Origin: Escherichia coli
GTDB lineage: Bacteria > Pseudomonadota > Gammaproteobacteria > Enterobacterales > Enterobacteriaceae
Reading direction: 5' to 3' (one strand)
Assembly (NCBI RefSeq): GCF_024502345.1
Contig: NZ_JALDNN010000001.1
Length of the DNA stretch: 64,000 nucleotides
Positions 1,305-52,560 of this stretch are shown one piece after another. Every line of letters begins with the position of its first letter. Position 1 is the first letter of the stretch. The translations under genes and the position numbers were made by a program. The notes under the pieces are model-generated. The model worked only from the letters and a program-made list of their open reading frames with translations, ran no database searches and was not told where the DNA came from.

Positions 1305-1477
1305 AAAGTTCTTTGACGTTGCATTGCTGGCGTAAATGTCAGCAATGCAGCATTTCCTCACGATTCTCCTTTGACGATCGCACTTTTTGCTCGTTATGAT
1401 GGCGTCGCTAGCCTCAGTAAATCCTTACTCCGGCGGTGCGCAACCCGTGCGCGTGAACCACTATCTGAATGCTCATC

Positions 1478-4163: not shown

Positions 4164-4358
4164 TTTCCACTCCTTGTGGTGGCGAAAAAATATCACAAAC
4201 TAGAATAGCGCCTTGTATGACAATTCAGCGAGTGAATATTTTGAAAATTCAGACAATAAACTGAGCATTCTTTTTCTCTCTCCATCATGCTTATGGCAAA
4301 CTACGGTTTTTGCACCATTTTCGCTGCCTCGTCGGGCAACAGAGGAAGAAAAATCCAT

Positions 4359-6656
4359 ATGAAATGGCTATGTTCAGTAGGAATCGCGGTGAGTCTGGCC
4401 CTGCAGCCAGCACTGGCGGATGATTTATTCGGCAACCATCCATTAACGCCCGAAGCGCGGGATGCGTTCGTCACCGAACTGCTTAAGAAAATGACAGTTG
4501 ATGAGAAAATTGGTCAGCTGCGCTTAATCAGCGTCGGCCCGGATAACCCGAAAGAGGCGATCCGCGAGATGATCAAAGACGGTCAGGTTGGGGCGATTTT
4601 CAACACCGTAACCCGTCAGGATATCCGCGCCATGCAGGATCAGGTGATGGAATTAAGCCGCCTGAAAATTCCTCTTTTCTTTGCTTACGACGTGCTGCAC
4701 GGTCAGCGCACGGTGTTCCCGATTAGCCTCGGTCTGGCCTCGTCTTTTAACCTCGATGCAGTGAAAACGGTCGGACGTGTCTCTGCTTATGAAGCGGCAG
4801 ATGATGGCCTGAATATGACCTGGGCACCGATGGTCGATGTCTCGCGCGATCCGCGCTGGGGACGTGCTTCCGAAGGTTTTGGCGAAGATACGTATCTCAC
4901 CTCAACAATGGGTAAAACCATGGTGGAAGCGATGCAGGGTAAAAGCCCGGCAGATCGCTACTCGGTGATGACCAGCGTCAAACACTTTGCCGCATACGGC
5001 GCGGTAGAAGGCGGTAAAGAGTACAACACCGTCGATATGAGTCCGCAGCGCCTGTTTAATGATTATATGCCGCCGTACAAAGCGGGGCTGGACGCAGGCA
5101 GCGGCGCGGTGATGGTGGCGCTGAACTCGCTGAACGGCACGCCAGCCACCTCCGATTCCTGGCTGCTGAAAGATGTTCTGCGCGACCAGTGGGGCTTTAA
5201 AGGCATCACCGTTTCCGATCACGGTGCAATCAAAGAGCTGATTAAACATGGCACGGCGGCAGACCCGGAAGATGCGGTGCGCGTGGCGCTGAAATCCGGA
5301 ATCAACATGAGTATGAGCGACGAGTACTACTCGAAGTATCTGCCTGGGTTGATTAAATCCGGTAAAGTGACGATGGCAGAGCTGGACGATGCTGCCCGCC
5401 ATGTACTGAACGTTAAATATGATATGGGGTTGTTTAACGACCCATACAGCCATCTCGGTCCGAAAGAGTCTGACCCGGTGGATACCAATGCCGAAAGCCG
5501 CTTGCACCGCAAAGAAGCGCGTGAAGTGGCGCGTGAAAGCCTGGTGTTGCTGAAAAACCGTCTCGAAACGTTACCGCTGAAAAAATCCGCAACCATTGCG
5601 GTGGTTGGCCCGCTGGCAGACAGCAAGCGTGACGTGATGGGAAGCTGGTCGGCGGCAGGTGTTGCAGATCAATCCGTGACCGTGCTGACCGGGATTAAAA
5701 ATGCCGTCGGTGAAAACGGTAAAGTGCTGTATGCCAAAGGGGCGAACGTTACCAGTGACAAAGGCATTATCGATTTCCTGAATCAGTATGAAGAAGCGGT
5801 CAAAGTCGATCCGCGTTCGCCGCAAGAGATGATTGATGAAGCGGTGCAGACGGCGAAACAATCTGATGTGGTGGTGGCTGTAGTCGGTGAAGCACAGGGG
5901 ATGGCGCACGAGGCCTCCAGCCGTACCGATATTACTATTCCGCAAAGCCAACGTGACTTGATTGCGGCGCTGAAAGCCACCGGTAAACCGCTGGTGCTGG
6001 TGCTGATGAACGGGCGTCCGCTGGCGCTGGTGAAAGAAGATCAGCAGGCTGATGCGATTCTGGAAACCTGGTTTGCGGGGACTGAAGGCGGTAATGCAAT
6101 TGCCGATGTGTTGTTTGGCGATTACAACCCGTCCGGCAAGCTGCCGATGTCCTTCCCGCGTTCTGTCGGGCAGATCCCGGTGTACTACAGCCATCTGAAC
6201 ACCGGTCGTCCGTATAATGCCGACAAGCCGAACAAATACACTTCGCGTTATTTTGATGAAGCTAACGGGGCGCTTTATCCGTTCGGCTATGGTCTGAGCT
6301 ATACCACTTTCACCGTCTCTGATGTGAAACTTTCTGCGCCGACCATGAAGCGTGACGGCAAAGTGACGGCCAGCGTGCAGGTGACGAACACCGGTAAACG
6401 CGAAGGGGCCACGGTAGTGCAGATGTACTTGCAGGATGTGACGGCTTCCATGAGTCGTCCGGTGAAACAGCTGAAAGGCTTTGAGAAAATCACCCTGAAA
6501 CCGGGCGAAACTCAGACCGTTAGCTTCCCGATTGATATCGAGGCGCTGAAGTTCTGGAATCAACAGATGAGATATGACGCCGAGCCTGGCAAGTTCAATG
6601 TCTTTATCGGCACTGATTCCGCACGCGTTAAGAAAGGCGAGTTTGAGTTGCTGTAA
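4359..6656 (+). CDS. bglX: periplasmic beta-glucosidase (GH3)
   Basis: ORF 4287..6656; start trimmed to MKWLCSVGIAVSLALQPALA signal peptide (765 aa); GH3-type sequence. Confidence 0.9.
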   Translation: MKWLCSVGIAVSLALQPALADDLFGNHPLTPEARDAFVTELLKKMTVDEKIGQLRLISVGPDNPKEAIREMIKDGQVGAIFNTVTRQDIRAMQDQVMELSRLKIPLFFAYDVLHGQRTVFPISLGLASSFNLDAVKTVGRVSAYEAADDGLNMTWAPMVDVSRDPRWGRASEGFGEDTYLTSTMGKTMVEAMQGKSPADRYSVMTSVKHFAAYGAVEGGKEYNTVDMSPQRLFNDYMPPYKAGLDAGSGAVMVALNSLNGTPATSDSWLLKDVLRDQWGFKGITVSDHGAIKELIKHGTAADPEDAVRVALKSGINMSMSDEYYSKYLPGLIKSGKVTMAELDDAARHVLNVKYDMGLFNDPYSHLGPKESDPVDTNAESRLHRKEAREVARESLVLLKNRLETLPLKKSATIAVVGPLADSKRDVMGSWSAAGVADQSVTVLTGIKNAVGENGKVLYAKGANVTSDKGIIDFLNQYEEAVKVDPRSPQEMIDEAVQTAKQSDVVVAVVGEAQGMAHEASSRTDITIPQSQRDLIAALKATGKPLVLVLMNGRPLALVKEDQQADAILETWFAGTEGGNAIADVLFGDYNPSGKLPMSFPRSVGQIPVYYSHLNTGRPYNADKPNKYTSRYFDEANGALYPFGYGLSYTTFTVSDVKLSAPTMKRDGKVTASVQVTNTGKREGATVVQMYLQDVTASMSRPVKQLKGFEKITLKPGETQTVSFPIDIEALKFWNQQMRYDAEPGKFNVFIGTDSARVKKGEFELL

Positions 6657-21904: not shown

Positions 21905-22000
21905 AAATAAAAAAACCTGCTGGTGAGGCAGGTTCTTTTATTTACTATTTTCAGGCCTAACACCACAGCCTGTGCAACATCGTGTTCCAACGAACGAATT
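21905..22000 (-). ncRNA. orzO: putative Orz-like antitoxin sRNA, copy 1 (ends approximate)
   Basis: Minus-strand intrinsic terminator (stem aacctgc/gcaggtt at 21914..21934 followed by U-run on minus strand); 20-nt region 21972..21991 repeated directly in the zor leader at 22138..22157, as expected for a divergent base-pairing sRNA. Confidence 0.45.
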
Positions 22001-22511: not shown

Positions 22512-22610
22512 AGAAAATAAAAAAACCTGCTGGTGAGGCAGGTTCTTTTATTTACTACAGTGACGCTAACTTGCTGATTGTGCAACATTTCGTACCAACG
22601 AATAAATTAT
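22512..22610 (-). ncRNA. orzP: putative Orz-like antitoxin sRNA, copy 2 (ends approximate)
   Basis: Same terminator hairpin at 22524..22544; region 22580..22600 repeated in the copy-2 leader at 22746..22766. Confidence 0.45.
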
Positions 22611-44058: not shown

Positions 44059-44298
44059 TTATAACTTCGTGGTATCAAGTCCGGCGGCTTTGAGTCGCTC
44101 GGTAAGATTTCTCATTTTGCTGAACTCTGTAGCAAAGCTGGCTTTAAGTCCTACACCTTCGCAAAACTCTTTTGCCGTGACGTTTTTCAGATGGTCAGCG
44201 TATTTGATCATCTGGAGGTGCATTTCCATCGTTTGGCTATTTCGTGGTGCGCTGCTAATGGCTTGCTTAATGTTCTCGTAGATCTGGGTTTCTGTCAT
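44059..44298 (-). CDS. hypothetical 79-aa protein (may start 6 codons earlier at 44316)
   Basis: ORF with SD-like ggtgag before MTETQIYENIKQ...; no signal peptide; no family recognised. Confidence 0.5.
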   Translation of the reverse strand: MTETQIYENIKQAISSAPRNSQTMEMHLQMIKYADHLKNVTAKEFCEGVGLKASFATEFSKMRNLTERLKAAGLDTTKL

Positions 44299-44499
44299 TT
44301 TTATCTCACCTATCAAATTTAGATAAATAATATAAATTAGCTAATTAAGATAGTCTACAGTTTTTACCACCTGAATGATGGGTGTGAATTGTTTCTTTTT
44401 CATTACTGATATGGGGTACACAGCGAAGACGTAATGAATGGAGGCGAGCTTGCATCTGCAAGCCTCTTCCCCTAAGCTGGCACAAAATATAGAGATTCA

Positions 44500-44625
44500 A
44501 CCAAACGACTCGGGGTGCCCTTCTGCGTGAAGGCTGAGAAATACCCGTATCACCTGATCTGGATAATGCCAGCGTAGGGAAGTCACGGACCACCAGGTCA
44601 TTGCTTCTTCACGTTATGGCAGGAG
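44500..44625 (+). promoter_or_regulatory. TPP (thi-box) riboswitch of thiMD
   Basis: ccaaacgactcggggtgcccttctgcgtgaaggctgagaaatacccgtatcacctgatctggataatgccagcgtagggaagtc directly upstream of thiM. Confidence 0.9.
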
Positions 44626-44631
44626 CAAACT

Positions 44632-45420
44632 ATGCAAGTCGACCTGCTGAGTTCCGCGCAATCTGCGCACGCGTTACACCTTTTTCACCAACATTCCCCT
44701 CTTGTGCACTGCATGACCAACGATGTGGTGCAAACCTTTACTGCCAATACCTTGCTGGCGCTCGGTGCATCGCCAGCGATGGTTATCGAAACCGAAGAGG
44801 CCAGTCAGTTTGCGGCTATTGCTAGTGCGTTGCTGATTAACGTTGGCACGCTGACGCAGCTACGCGCACAGTCGATGTGTGCCGCCGTTGAGCAAGCAAA
44901 AAGCTCTCAAACACCCTGGACGCTTGATCCAGTAGCGGTTGGTGCACTCGATTATCGCCGCCGTTTTTGTCTGGAACTTCTGTCTCATAAGCCAACCGCC
45001 ATACGTGGTAATGCTTCGGAAATCATGGCATTAGCTGGCATTGCTAATGGTGGACGGGGAGTGGATACCACTGACGCCGCAGCTAACGCGATACCCGCTG
45101 CACAAACACTGGCACGGGAAACTGGCGCAATCGTCGTGGTCACTGGCGAGATGGATTATGTTACCGATGGACATCGTATCATTGGTATTCACGGTGGCGA
45201 TCCGTTAATGACCAAAGTGGTAGGAACTGGCTGTGCATTATCGGCGGTTGTCGCTGCCTGCTGTGCGTTACCAGGCGATACGCTGGAAAATGTCGCATCT
45301 GCCTGTCACTGGATGAAACAAGCCGGAGAACGCGCAGTCGCCAGAAGCGAGGGGCCAGGCAGTTTTGTTCCACATTTCCTTGATGCGCTCTGGCAATTGA
45401 CGCAGGAGGTGCAGGCATGA
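44632..45420 (+). CDS. thiM: hydroxyethylthiazole kinase
   Basis: 262-aa ORF downstream of thi-box; overlaps thiD start. Confidence 0.9.
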
Positions 45421-51368: not shown

Positions 51369-52421
51369 ATGACAGATATTGCGCAGTTGCTTGGCAAAGA
51401 CGCCGACAACCTTTTACAGCACCGTTGTATGACTATTCCTTCTGACCAGCTTTATCTCCCCGGACATGACTACGTAGACCGCGTGATGATTGACAATAAT
51501 CGCCCGCCAGCGGTGTTACGTAATATGCAGACGTTGTACAACACCGGGCGTCTGGCTGGCACAGGATATCTTTCTATTCTGCCGGTTGACCAGGGCGTTG
51601 AGCACTCTGCCGGAGCTTCATTTGCTGCTAACCCGCTCTACTTTGACCCGAAAAACATTGTTGAACTGGCGATCGAAGCGGGCTGTAACTGTGTGGCATC
51701 AACTTACGGCGTGCTGGCGTCGGTATCGCGGCGTTATGCGCATCGCATTCCATTCCTCGTCAAACTTAATCACAACGAGACGCTAAGTTACCCGAACACC
51801 TACGATCAAACGCTGTATGCCAGCGTGGAGCAGGCCTTCAACATGGGCGCGGTGGCGGTTGGTGCGACTATCTATTTTGGCTCGGAAGAGTCACGTCGCC
51901 AGATTGAAGAAATTTCTGCGGCTTTTGAACGTGCGCACGAGCTGGGCATGGTGACAGTGCTGTGGGCTTATTTGCGTAACTCCGCCTTTAAGAAAGATGG
52001 CGTTGATTACCATGTTTCCGCCGACCTGACTGGTCAGGCGAACCATCTGGCGGCAACCATAGGTGCAGATATCGTCAAACAAAAAATGGCGGAAAATAAC
52101 GGCGGCTATAAAGCGATTAATTACGGTTACACCGACGATCGTGTTTACAGCAAATTGACCAGCGAAAACCCGATTGATCTGGTGCGTTATCAGTTAGCTA
52201 ACTGCTATATGGGGCGCGCAGGGTTGATAAACTCCGGCGGCGCTGCGGGCGGTGAAACTGACCTCAGCGATGCAGTGCGTACTGCGGTTATCAACAAACG
52301 CGCTGGCGGAATGGGGCTGATTCTTGGACGTAAGGCGTTCAAGAAATCGATGGCTGACGGCGTGAAACTGATTAACGCCGTGCAGGACGTTTATCTCGAT
52401 AGCAAAATTACTATCGCCTGA
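51369..52421 (+). CDS. fbaB: class I fructose-bisphosphate aldolase
   Basis: ORF 51297..52421; start trimmed to [14 protein letters not shown] (350 aa). Confidence 0.9.
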
Positions 52422-52429
52422 TACGAACG

Positions 52430-52560
52430 GCACTACCCCGTAGGACGGATAAGGCGTTTACGCCGCATCCGGCAACCTATGCCTGATGCGACGCTGAAGC
52501 GTCTTATCATGCCTACGCAGCGCTGCCACATATGTTTACACCGCATCCGGCATAAAAACA
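52430..52560. repeat. REP/BIME palindromic element cluster
   Basis: Repeated gccggatgcggcgtaaacgcc / gcctgatgcgacgc type palindromes between fbaB and gatY. Confidence 0.6.

What the first reader, a model, noticed from the sequence alone, without database searches (positions are those of the whole stretch)
44059..44298. 79-aa cytoplasmic ORF divergent from the thiM riboswitch
MTETQIYENIKQAISSAPRNSQTMEMHLQMIKYADHLKNVTAKEFCEGVGLKASFATEFSKMRNLTERLKAAGLDTTKL is probably all-helical with a possible HTH-like segment (VTAKEFCEGVGL). I cannot place it in a family from memory. It is at the thiM-proximal edge of the islet. Its promoter region would overlap the thiMD promoter and riboswitch, so its insertion could affect thiamine-gene expression.
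Basis: inference. Interest (0 to 1): 0.4.

Follow-up and report, generated by a model that had tools for sequence, protein, structure and literature searches.

The report
Orphan RptR repressor beside thiM riboswitch
The 79-aa ORF is a real, conserved gene for an already described small repressor (RptR, which normally switches off phage-defence operons); here it is a leftover at the edge of a decayed mobile island that inserted into the thiM thiamine riboswitch and replaced the native thiM promoter.

Summary
The ORF (44059-44298, minus strand, 79 aa) is real. It matches Pfam HTH_73 (105 bits; cut-off 27) and is about 68% identical to EPEC RptR (PDB 9R2Z), a dimeric repressor of a type I restriction/DarTG island. 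The same protein (WP_000141034.1) is already listed as an RptR homologue in that 2025 paper's supplement, so its identity is not new.

All published DNA-contact and dimer residues are present. Its promoter (TAGACT-17-TATATT) carries two predicted RptR operators, TAGCTA and TATCTA, flanking the -10 box. I infer that it still represses its own promoter.

It has no cargo. In E. coli B the gene at this position heads the operon of the type IV restriction enzyme EcoBLMcrX. Here that gene is absent and the next 1 kb is decayed. A near-invariant Gly56 is Ala.

The islet (42225-44497) is the stump of an integrative island. Intact copies in E. coli, Klebsiella, Enterobacter and Cronobacter sit between two copies of the thiM TPP aptamer, with a tyrosine integrase at the far end.

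Foreign DNA ends exactly at the riboswitch. The K-12 thiM promoter is absent, and a conserved island-borne block stands in its place. The rptR promoter does not overlap the riboswitch.

The ORF is ordinary. The riboswitch-targeting island is the more interesting by-product.

The parts
44059..44298 (-). rptR homologue CDS (79 aa; WP_000141034.1)
   Evidence: ORF. Pfam HTH_73 E=1.8e-30. 9R2Z E=1.5e-31. AF2 model matches 9r2z at TM 0.93. dN/dS 0.04-0.09.
44305..44311 (-). Shine-Dalgarno AGGTGAG, 6 nt before the ATG
   Evidence: Read from the sequence.
44319..44344 (.). Array of three abutting direct-repeat units. Predicted RptR operators are TAGCTA (44338-44343; -45 to -40) and TATCTA on the gene strand (44320-44325; -27 to -22). 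The middle unit is non-binding and holds the -10 box.
   Evidence: Site definitions come from PMC12255303. This is the only pair of separate sites within 30 bp in the 64-kb window. The array is conserved in relatives with 1-4 sites.
44329..44357 (-). rptR promoter TAGACT-17-TATATT
   Evidence: The only promoter-like site found in 43900-44700. TATATT is kept in most relatives listed.
44368..44384 (+). Hairpin followed by a T-rich tail (terminator-like), between the rptR promoter and the thiM leader
   Evidence: Function not tested.
44411..44421 (+). One copy of the ATGGGGTACA motif. It is repeated 2-3 times in intact right arms and occurs again at the int start in left arms. I read it as an integrase arm-type site.
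   Evidence: Alignments. The site assignment is inference.
44448..44500 (+). Island-derived block directly before the riboswitch: palindrome GCTTGCAtcTGCAAGC (44448-44463) and the conserved run CTTCCCCTAAGCTGGCAnAAAnTATAGAGATTCAA. Candidate replacement thiM promoter TTGCAT-17-TAAGCT (44450-44478).
   Evidence: Nearly invariant in 8 right arms from E. coli and Klebsiella. Coordinates. It did not pass the tool's promoter threshold. Promoter function is inferred.
44498..44579 (+). 82 bp of the TPP aptamer that is duplicated at both ends of intact islands (att repeat). The shared core is 44532-44579.
   Evidence: 100% match to the rcnR-side copy in ATCC 8739, AHM9C68I and ETEC1732. Alignments.
44501..44597 (+). 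thiM TPP riboswitch aptamer
   Evidence: Rfam RF00059, 71.2 bits, gathering score 54.3.
43685..43924 (+). Pseudogene remnant of an 81-aa island gene, convergent with rptR. There is a stop in the N-terminal part.
   Evidence: tblastn: 77% identity over 66 aa to the intact Tig207 gene. Translation.
42660..43007 (-). 115-aa secreted-looking protein, a backbone gene of the island family
   Evidence: Homologues lie beside the resolvase gene in ETEC1732, ATCC 8739 and Klebsiella islands.
42336..42650 (-). 104-aa secreted-looking protein (annotated 'outer membrane protein'), partner of the 115-aa gene
42225..44497 (.). The whole islet (36.7% GC): an island stump lacking attL, integrase, cargo and resolvase
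   Evidence: Homology with K-12 ends at 42224 and resumes at 44498. GC. Mapping onto the intact ETEC1732 island.

Best explanation
The ORF encodes a member of the RptR family. RptR is a 9-kDa, four-helix homodimeric repressor that places the N-terminal ends of its two helix-4 copies into one major groove and reads 6-bp palindromes of the TAGCTA type. In this window the gene sits at the right (thiM-side) end of the stump of an integrative, satellite-like defence island that had inserted into the thiM TPP riboswitch. In intact relatives rptR is the first gene of a short defence operon; in E. coli B it is rptR-ecoBLmcrX, a type IV restriction enzyme. Here the cargo gene is absent, so the repressor is an orphan. 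The most likely present activity is negative autoregulation. Dimers would bind TAGCTA (-45) and TATCTA (-27), which bracket the -10 box TATATT of its own promoter, and so keep its own transcription low. There is no obvious cis target beyond itself. Shown: family membership, fold, conserved contact residues, presence and conservation of the operators, absence of cargo, island origin, and loss of the native thiM promoter. Inferred: that this copy, which carries G56A, still binds DNA and represses.
For: Family: Pfam HTH_73 scores 105 bits against a cut-off of 27. Full-length match to RptR 9R2Z at E=1.5e-31. The AF2 model (pLDDT 94) superposes on 9r2z at TM 0.93 and rmsd about 1 A. The accession is listed as an RptR homologue in PMC12255303 Supp. 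Tables 6 and 9. Residues: E25, T57, E58, S60, K61, L69, A72 and L74 are all present. Operators: two sites sit on either side of a non-binding 9-mer. The paper reports that this arrangement, which it calls DR1/s/3, gives wild-type-like repression and that two sites are necessary and sufficient. Promoter: TAGACT-17-TATATT with the -10 between the sites. Selection: dN/dS 0.04-0.09 against Tig207, AHM9C68I, BL21, Pantoea and Buttiauxella copies. Operon in relatives: rptR then DUF6998 in BL21, AHM9C68I, ETEC1732, Klebsiella, Enterobacter and Cronobacter. Transposon insertions in the E. coli B gene ECD_02033 abolish EcoBLMcrX restriction by polarity (PMC5487053). Orphan status: no ORF of 30 aa or more in 43496-44058 and no tblastn trace of McrX. 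Island origin.
Against: Gly56 is found in 118 of 120 homologue cluster representatives and directly precedes the DNA-contact stretch 57-61. It is Ala in this copy. A sister islet (E500002) still has Gly, so the change arose after orphaning and may weaken binding. One ancestral operator has been lost: relatives have TATCTA at about -56, the window has TATCTT. The -35 is weaker here (TAGACT) than in relatives (TTGACT or TTGATT). No expression, binding or repression data exist for this copy. The 339 genomes with this islet are 97.4-100% identical, so purifying selection on the orphan itself cannot be measured.
Confidence: 0.8

Rival explanations
1. The gene is a functionless relic. It is intact only because the islet is young, and it no longer binds DNA usefully.
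For: The cargo is absent and the neighbouring island genes are decayed. G56A at a 98%-conserved position arose inside the orphan lineage. One operator is lost. In ATCC 8739 a cargo-less copy shows dN/dS 0.64, an altered N-terminus and one remaining site.
Against: The reading frame, SD, promoter and two operators are intact in all listed genomes with the islet. Solitary rptR copies in Pantoea and Buttiauxella elements keep four operators and low dN/dS, so a solitary copy need not be useless.
Confidence: 0.25
2. The orphan acts in trans. It silences or buffers RptR-controlled defence operons elsewhere in the genome or on incoming elements, through the shared TAGCTA-type operators.
For: Recognition residues and operators are almost invariant across the family. 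RptR supplied in trans abolishes defence by the EPEC island. Solitary, well-conserved copies exist at the integrase end of capsid-bearing elements.
Against: No second operator cluster occurs in the 64-kb window. I did not establish whether these strains carry another RptR-controlled operon. There is no experimental hint.
Confidence: 0.12
3. It is a recombination directionality factor or architectural protein for island excision, like P2 Cox, which is both a repressor and an excisionase.
For: It is a small DNA-binding protein with an array of direct repeats, located about 65-95 bp from the putative integrase arm-type repeats and about 190 bp from the att core. In Buttiauxella and Pantoea the gene lies right next to an integrase.
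Against: Pfam gives only HTH_73 and no excisionase family. The EPEC type member is in an IS-flanked island and acts as a promoter repressor. The integrases next to rptR in the two element types are only 26% identical, so there is no co-evolving pair. The window has no integrase and no attL.
Confidence: 0.05
4. It directly regulates thiMD by binding in the shared intergenic region.
For: The gene is divergent from thiM and shares a 333-bp intergenic region.
Against: Both predicted operators lie at 44320-44343, more than 100 bp upstream of the conserved block before the riboswitch. No RptR site occurs between 44344 and 44631.
Confidence: 0.03

Closest known systems
RptR of EPEC E2348/69 (WP_000343040.1; PDB 9R2Z; PMC12255303)
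   Same: The two proteins have the same length (79 aa), about 68% identity, the same four-helix fold, the same contact and dimer residues, and the same type of operator (TAGCTA-type palindromes in 9-bp direct repeats over the -10 box of its own promoter).
   Different: The EPEC gene heads a type I RMS-DarTG2-M48 operon and has three perfect TTTAGCTAA repeats at -58 to -31. The window gene has nothing downstream, two sites (TAGCTA and TATCTA) at -45 and -27, and Ala instead of Gly at position 56.
ECD_02033 of E. coli B / BL21 (WP_001318412.1), upstream of EcoBLMcrX (PMC5487053)
   Same: It occupies the same chromosomal position, at the island edge next to the thiM riboswitch. The two proteins differ at five of 79 residues, and the operator array is of the same type.
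   Different: In E. coli B the gene is followed after 46 bp by ecoBLmcrX (Pfam DUF6998), and insertions in it abolish restriction. The window copy has no such gene.
Controller (C) proteins of type II restriction-modification systems
   Same: Both are small autoregulated DNA-binding proteins encoded as the first gene of a restriction operon, and both set its expression.
   Different: C proteins are Xre-type HTH proteins that bind roughly 35-bp operators across adjacent major grooves. RptR is a different fold and reads a 6-bp palindrome in one groove. The window protein is not a member.
Genomic islands and satellites that integrate into tRNA, tmRNA or small-RNA genes
   Same: The parent island has a tyrosine integrase next to one att copy, direct repeats made of a conserved structured-RNA sequence, and it carries a replacement for the part of the target it displaces.
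   Different: The target here is a cis-regulatory riboswitch aptamer. What is replaced is the 5' side (promoter plus leader and the 5' half of the aptamer), not the 3' end of an RNA gene.

Membership tests
RptR / Pfam PF24718 (HTH_73) | Profile match above the curated cut-off over the whole domain | tested here: met
   105 bits against 27, residues 2-71 on profile positions 1-70 of 71.
RptR / Pfam PF24718 (HTH_73) | Full-length similarity to the characterised type member (9R2Z) | tested here: met
   E=1.5e-31 over residues 1-77. 68% identity in the structural alignment. The accession is listed at 68.35% identity in the paper's tables.
RptR / Pfam PF24718 (HTH_73) | Four-helix monomer with a long C-terminal helix 4 | tested here: met
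   AF2 model with pLDDT 94.4 and helices at 3-16, 19-32, 42-49 and 53-71. Foldseek against 9r2z_A/B gives TM 0.93-0.94 and rmsd 0.9-1.1 A; the next hit has E about 0.9.
RptR / Pfam PF24718 (HTH_73) | DNA-contact residues T57-K61 (E58 and K61 invariant, S60 functionally tested) and dimer residues E25, L69, A72, L74 | tested here: met
   All are present. Caveat: the adjacent, nearly invariant G56 is Ala.
RptR / Pfam PF24718 (HTH_73) | At least two TAGCTA/TAGATA/TATCTA/TATATA sites in direct repeats at the -10 box of its own promoter | tested here: met
   TAGCTA at -45 and TATCTA at -27 flank TATATT.
RptR / Pfam PF24718 (HTH_73) | Homodimer in solution, sequence-specific DNA binding, repression in vivo | not testable with these tools
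   This needs SEC, a gel-shift assay and a reporter assay.
RptR-controlled defence operon (RMS-proximal arrangement) | A restriction or other defence gene immediately downstream on the same strand | tested here: not met
   No ORF of 30 aa or more in 43496-44058. No McrX trace. The next feature is a convergent pseudogene. So this is a family member without the system.
Intact tyrosine-integrase island at the thiM TPP riboswitch | Integrase next to one att copy, and direct repeats of the aptamer at both ends | tested here: not met
   The window has only the thiM-side copy. The rcnR stop codon is fused directly to islet DNA, with no int and no native promoter. Intact examples are ATCC 8739, AHM9C68I, ETEC1732 and Klebsiella L014. 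The window holds a stump only.
Canonical HTH regulators (Xre/cI, C proteins) and excisionases | Match to an HTH or excisionase profile | tested here: not met
   Pfam returns only HTH_73. NCBIfam and PADLOC return nothing. Foldseek hits to sigma region 4 and similar have E of about 1 or worse.

The most novel reading that the evidence does not exclude
The islet is the stump of a family of 9-11-kb, satellite-like integrative islands. They occur in E. coli, Klebsiella, Enterobacter, Cronobacter and Citrobacter. Their tyrosine integrase uses the conserved core of the thiM TPP riboswitch aptamer as its attachment site. The islands carry their own promoter-like block and 5' aptamer half, so thiMD keeps a riboswitch after insertion. 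In about 8% of complete E. coli genomes, O157:H7 included, the native thiM promoter is absent and thiMD must be transcribed from island-derived DNA. In intact islands RptR heads the EcoBLMcrX operon, which would extend RptR control from type I to type IV restriction. A more speculative extension is that the integrase, which always sits 65-70 bp behind an aptamer copy, is itself influenced by thiamine status. I found no description of this attachment site in the paper library. The probability given covers both being correct and being undescribed.
Probability: 0.55. Interest if true: 0.55.

Novelty: already known. Interest (0 to 1): 0.3.

Why it matters
For the ORF itself it matters little. It removes an 'unknown' from the O157:H7-type islet by assigning it to a family with a solved structure and a tested mechanism. 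It also shows that this copy is a cargo-less orphan carrying a suspicious G56A change.

The context has wider use in three ways.
- It links two separate papers. The 'transcription regulator' upstream of EcoBLMcrX (2017) is an RptR (2025), so RptR probably also controls a type IV restriction enzyme.
- It shows a riboswitch aptamer serving as an integration site for a defence-carrying mobile element in several enterobacterial genera.
- It shows that thiMD in a sizeable minority of E. coli has lost its native promoter. This is relevant to anyone who uses the E. coli thiM riboswitch or compares thiamine-salvage regulation between strains.

Tried and rejected
- NCBIfam and PADLOC gave no hit for the ORF. 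PHROGs gave only families of unknown function.
- I looked for a remnant of EcoBLMcrX, or of the 239-aa HTH_36 island gene, downstream of rptR by tblastn. None was found; only the 81-aa gene remnant turned up.
- The consensus scan did not find a sigma-70 promoter for thiM in the island-derived DNA at its threshold. TTGCAT-17-TAAGCT is my own weak candidate. A sigma-54 reading of CTGGCAC was rejected because no TTGC follows at the right distance.
- I tested whether the integrases next to rptR in the Buttiauxella/Pantoea elements and in the thiM islands are the same family. They are only 26% identical in the catalytic domain, so rptR is a portable module and not tied to one integrase.
- Literature searches for the thiM riboswitch as an att site, or for this hotspot, found nothing relevant except the EcoBLMcrX paper. 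No follow-up RptR paper is held.
- I considered TPP control of the integrase through the attL aptamer copy. Its P1 helix is weakened (two non-standard pairs and a deletion) and the thiM expression platform is not included, so I left this as speculation.
- I did not use the search of protein representatives, the metagenome or genome-contig scans, or a second structure job. The answer did not depend on them.

Full report
**1. Observation**

The window around the finding is E. coli: rcnA (41009-41833, minus), rcnR (41954-42226, plus), then about 2.3 kb of low-GC DNA, then thiM (44632 onward), thiD, yegX and yegW.

An ORF on the minus strand ends at 44059. It has an AGGTGAG Shine-Dalgarno 6 nt upstream. 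The longer TTG start (85 aa) is not used by homologues, which are almost all 79 aa.

It is a real gene.
- 734 homologue clusters have E <= 1e-3, the listed ones all carrying Pfam PF24718.
- dN/dS against diverged copies is 0.04-0.09.
- RefSeq annotates it as WP_000141034.1, and that protein is identical to the window protein.

**2. What the protein is**

Pfam places it in HTH_73 (PF24718) at 105 bits against a cut-off of 27.

A search of PDB sequences gives a full-length match (E=1.5e-31) to 9R2Z. That entry is RptR, the 'RMS-proximal transcriptional regulator' of enteropathogenic E. coli (Zhang et al., NAR 2025, PMC12255303). The paper reports the following.
- RptR is a homodimer of four-helix subunits.
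- It represses the promoter of a type I RMS-DarTG2-M48 defence island.
- It binds three 9-bp direct repeats (TTTAGCTAA) that overlap the -10 box.
- The minimal site is TAGCTA, and TAGATA, TATCTA and TATATA are also tolerated.
- Residues T57-K61 at the start of helix 4 are modelled to contact the bases, and the S60G mutant binds poorly.
- E58 and K61 are invariant, and E25, L69, A72 and L74 serve dimerisation.
- Two sites are necessary and sufficient, even when separated by a non-binding repeat.

The window protein has every one of these residues. An AlphaFold2 model (pLDDT 94.4; helices 3-16, 19-32, 42-49, 53-71) superposes on 9r2z at TM 0.93 and about 1 A. Nothing else in the PDB comes close.

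The accession WP_000141034.1 is itself listed among the 117 RptR homologues in that paper's Supplementary Tables 6 and 9, at 68.35% identity. The identity of the ORF is therefore already in the literature.

**3. Its control region**

The only sigma-70-like site in 43900-44700 is TAGACT-17-TATATT on the minus strand, at 44357-44329.

In gene orientation the upstream sequence reads TAGACTATCTTAA TTAGCTAA TTTATATTA TTTATCTAA, followed by 20 nt and then ATG. That gives TAGCTA at -45 to -40 and TATCTA at -27 to -22. Between them lies a non-binding repeat that contains the -10 box. This is the arrangement the paper calls DR1/s/3 and found to repress like wild type.

In the whole 64-kb window this is the only place where two separate sites lie within 30 bp of each other.

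The array is conserved in relatives:

| Copy | Predicted sites |
|---|---|
| Buttiauxella, Pantoea | 4 |
| AHM9C68I | 3 |
| BL21 | 2 |
| Window and O157:H7 | 2 |
| ATCC 8739, Tig207 | 1 |

TATATT sits between the sites in most of these copies. The window lost the distal site by a point change (TATCTA to TATCTT).

**4. What is, and is not, downstream**

In EPEC, rptR is followed by hsdM. Here nothing follows.
- There is no ORF of 30 aa or more in 43496-44058.
- The region is 30-34% GC.
- Its only recognisable content is a convergent pseudogene (43685-43924). It is 77% identical over 66 aa to an intact 81-aa gene in strain Tig207, with a stop in the N-terminal part.

Other E. coli carry diverged versions of rptR at the same locus. 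In BL21, AHM9C68I and ETEC1732 the gene is followed after about 46 bp by a DUF6998 gene. That gene is ecoBLmcrX (ECD_02034), the type IV modification-dependent restriction enzyme of E. coli B. [quoted passage not shown] 2017, PMC5487053). ECD_02033 is the RptR homologue.

So in this island family rptR heads a two-gene restriction operon, and the window copy is a cargo-less orphan. tblastn finds no trace of McrX in the window.

**5. Where the foreign DNA begins, and the fate of the thiM promoter**

Against K-12, homology ends at 42224, inside the rcnR stop codon, and resumes at 44498, the first bases of the TPP riboswitch. Rfam places the TPP aptamer at 44501-44597.

The 90 bp that K-12 has between these points are absent from the window. 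They contain a good promoter-like TTTACA-17-TACCAT, which is my reading of the K-12 sequence.

That 89-bp native segment is found in 5011 of 5426 complete E. coli genomes. About 415 therefore lack it. 339 genomes carry this islet at 80% coverage or more.

In place of the native segment stands island DNA. Its last 50 bp are GCTTGCAnnnnGCAAGC..CTTCCCCTAAGCTGGCAnAAAnTATAGAGATTCAA. This block is almost invariant in eight right arms from E. coli and Klebsiella. I infer that it supplies the thiMD promoter; the candidate is TTGCAT-17-TAAGCT at 44450-44478. It did not reach the scan threshold and needs start-site mapping.

The rptR promoter is 141 bp from the riboswitch and does not overlap it.

**6. 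The islet is the stump of an island that integrates into the riboswitch**

In ATCC 8739, AHM9C68I and ETEC1732 the locus reads as follows:

rcnR, the native 91 bp, TPP aptamer copy 1, a tyrosine integrase, cargo, a resolvase, the 104-aa and/or 115-aa secreted-protein genes, small genes, an HTH_36 protein or similar gene, (mcrX), rptR, about 200 bp, TPP aptamer copy 2, thiM.

The cargo differs between islands: GmrSD in ATCC 8739, HNH in AHM9C68I, and a TIR-domain protein in ETEC1732.

- Copy 1 matches window 44498-44579 at 100% over 82 bp, and then diverges at ...GCGTAGGG|GGCC.
- K-12 is the exact empty site.
- In AHM9C68I the thiM-side copy has a different 5' half with a compensated P3 stem. 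It scores higher than the native aptamer (73.6 against 71.2 bits). The element therefore brings its own 5' aptamer half, and the crossover must lie in the 47-bp core at 44532-44579.

Integrases about 80% identical occur in Enterobacter hormaechei, Klebsiella pneumoniae, Cronobacter sakazakii and Citrobacter koseri.
- In all four genera a TPP hit lies 68 bp upstream of int.
- In Klebsiella the second aptamer copy, rptR, mcrX and thiM close the island 8.9 kb away.
- The C. koseri element also carries a capsid gene, Phage_cap_E. So do the Buttiauxella and Pantoea elements that hold the closest rptR relatives next to a different integrase. The family looks satellite-like.

The window's left part (42290-43093) maps just to the right of the resolvase gene in the ETEC1732 island. 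The islet therefore arose by deletion of the native promoter, attL, int, cargo and resolvase.

Strain STEC388 shows a further stage. There an IS1-associated deletion leaves only about 190 bp of island DNA in front of the riboswitch.

**7. How it most likely works here**

Shown: the gene encodes an RptR with intact contact and dimer residues, behind a promoter bracketed by two predicted operators. There is no cis cargo.

Inferred: dimers bind the two sites and shut down their own promoter. The result would be a low, self-limited level of a repressor that has nothing else to control in cis.

Caveat: Gly56 is Ala in the window and in O157:H7. Gly occupies this position in 118 of 120 homologue representatives, and it directly precedes the contact stretch. 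A sister islet (E500002, 97.4% DNA identity) keeps Gly. The change therefore arose after the gene was orphaned, which fits relaxed constraint.

Rivals:
- a functionless relic;
- a trans-acting silencer of other RptR-controlled operons, since the paper shows that RptR supplied in trans abolishes defence;
- an excision accessory factor;
- a direct thiMD regulator, which is unlikely because no site lies within 100 bp of the block before the riboswitch.

**8. Comparison, novelty and verdict**

The ORF is a member of a known, structurally and functionally characterised family, and it is already catalogued as such. What it lacks is the defence operon that defines the 'RMS-proximal' arrangement. As a finding it is ordinary, and I score it low.

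Three things seen on the way appear not to be described in the paper library I could search.
- The regulator upstream of EcoBLMcrX is an RptR.
- A TPP riboswitch aptamer serves as the attachment site of a multi-genus island family that rebuilds the 5' side of its target.
- The native thiM promoter is replaced in about 8% of complete E. coli genomes.

These are well supported by comparative sequence evidence but are untested experimentally. My literature search was limited to open-access text.

Noticed in passing
window 44498-44579; L011 (ATCC 8739), L012 (AHM9C68I), L014 (K. pneumoniae), L017 (ETEC1732); L013, L015, L016: A family of 9-11-kb integrative islands lies between two copies of the thiM TPP aptamer. 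A tyrosine integrase starts 65-70 bp after the rcnR-side copy. The same integrase-behind-aptamer arrangement is seen in five genera, and K-12 is the exact empty site.
   Followed up: yes
L010 5511-6228 (BL21); L009, L013-L015, L017: The RptR homologue at the thiM locus is ECD_02033, the gene upstream of the type IV enzyme EcoBLMcrX (Pfam DUF6998). This links the 2017 McrX paper with the 2025 RptR paper and suggests that RptR also controls type IV restriction. BL21 keeps only two predicted operators.
   Followed up: partly
window 44131-44133 (codon 56 of the ORF): Ala replaces a Gly that is present in 118 of 120 homologue representatives, directly before the DNA-contact residues 57-61. The sister islet in strain E500002 still has Gly, so the change arose in the orphan lineage shared with O157:H7.
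   Followed up: partly
L012 28180-28276 (AHM9C68I, thiM-side aptamer): The island-borne 5' half of the aptamer differs from the host's (GCCCCATCAATGATGGGC against GCCCTTCTGCGTGAAGGC) but keeps the P3 pairing. It scores higher against Rfam TPP than the native aptamer. In the window and in ATCC 8739 the 5' half is host-like, which implies different crossover points or later conversion.
   Followed up: partly
L012 19290-19384; L011 9166-9261; L013-L016 9837-9933: The aptamer copy left in front of the integrase still passes the Rfam threshold (57-64 bits), but its P1 helix is weakened and it lacks the thiM expression platform. Whether thiamine status affects integrase expression is open.
   Followed up: no
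window 42336-42650 and 42660-43007 (minus strand): Two small genes with signal-peptide-like N-termini (104 and 115 aa) have no Pfam family. Homologues of the 115-aa gene lie beside the resolvase gene in E. coli and Klebsiella islands, so it belongs to the island backbone. ETEC1732 has both genes. Function unknown.
   Followed up: partly
window 44411-44421; right arms in L007-L010, L014, L017, L018; left arms at the int start: The motif (A/T)GGGGTACA is repeated 2-3 times in intact right arms and occurs again over the integrase start codon in left arms. These are probably integrase arm-type sites. Only one copy remains in the window.
   Followed up: partly
L018 (STEC388) 4198-5187; NZ_LR134315.1 (NCTC9064): IS1 activity is visible at this locus. 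In STEC388 an IS1 lies about 195 bp from the riboswitch, with yehC to rcnR and most of the island absent. NCTC9064 has an IS1 inside an otherwise 100% identical islet. The 2017 paper notes that spontaneous loss of McrX restriction in E. coli B gave thiamine-requiring strains, and attributed this to probable IS1-mediated deletions extending to thiM.
   Followed up: no
window 21909-21984 and 22519-22592 (minus strand): Two Rfam OrzO-P antitoxin RNA hits (99.9 and 88.8 bits), which points to a tandem zor-orz type I toxin-antitoxin locus.
   Followed up: no
window 1393-1473 (+) and 52443-52513 (+): Rfam hits to Peptidase-S11 RNA (72.8 bits) and naRNA4 (68.3 bits).
   Followed up: no
window 52194-52201: A second TTAGCTAA octamer is present, a single site with no partner within 30 bp. 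About one such octamer is expected by chance in 64 kb.
   Followed up: no
L003 8001-8240; L004, L005 8001-8240: The closest rptR relatives outside E. coli (86-87% identity, Pantoea and Buttiauxella) are solitary genes close to an integrase gene (DUF6538 + Phage_integrase), directly after it in Buttiauxella. They sit at the edge of capsid-encoding elements, have four operators and show low dN/dS. Solitary RptR copies on mobile elements may have a role of their own.
   Followed up: partly
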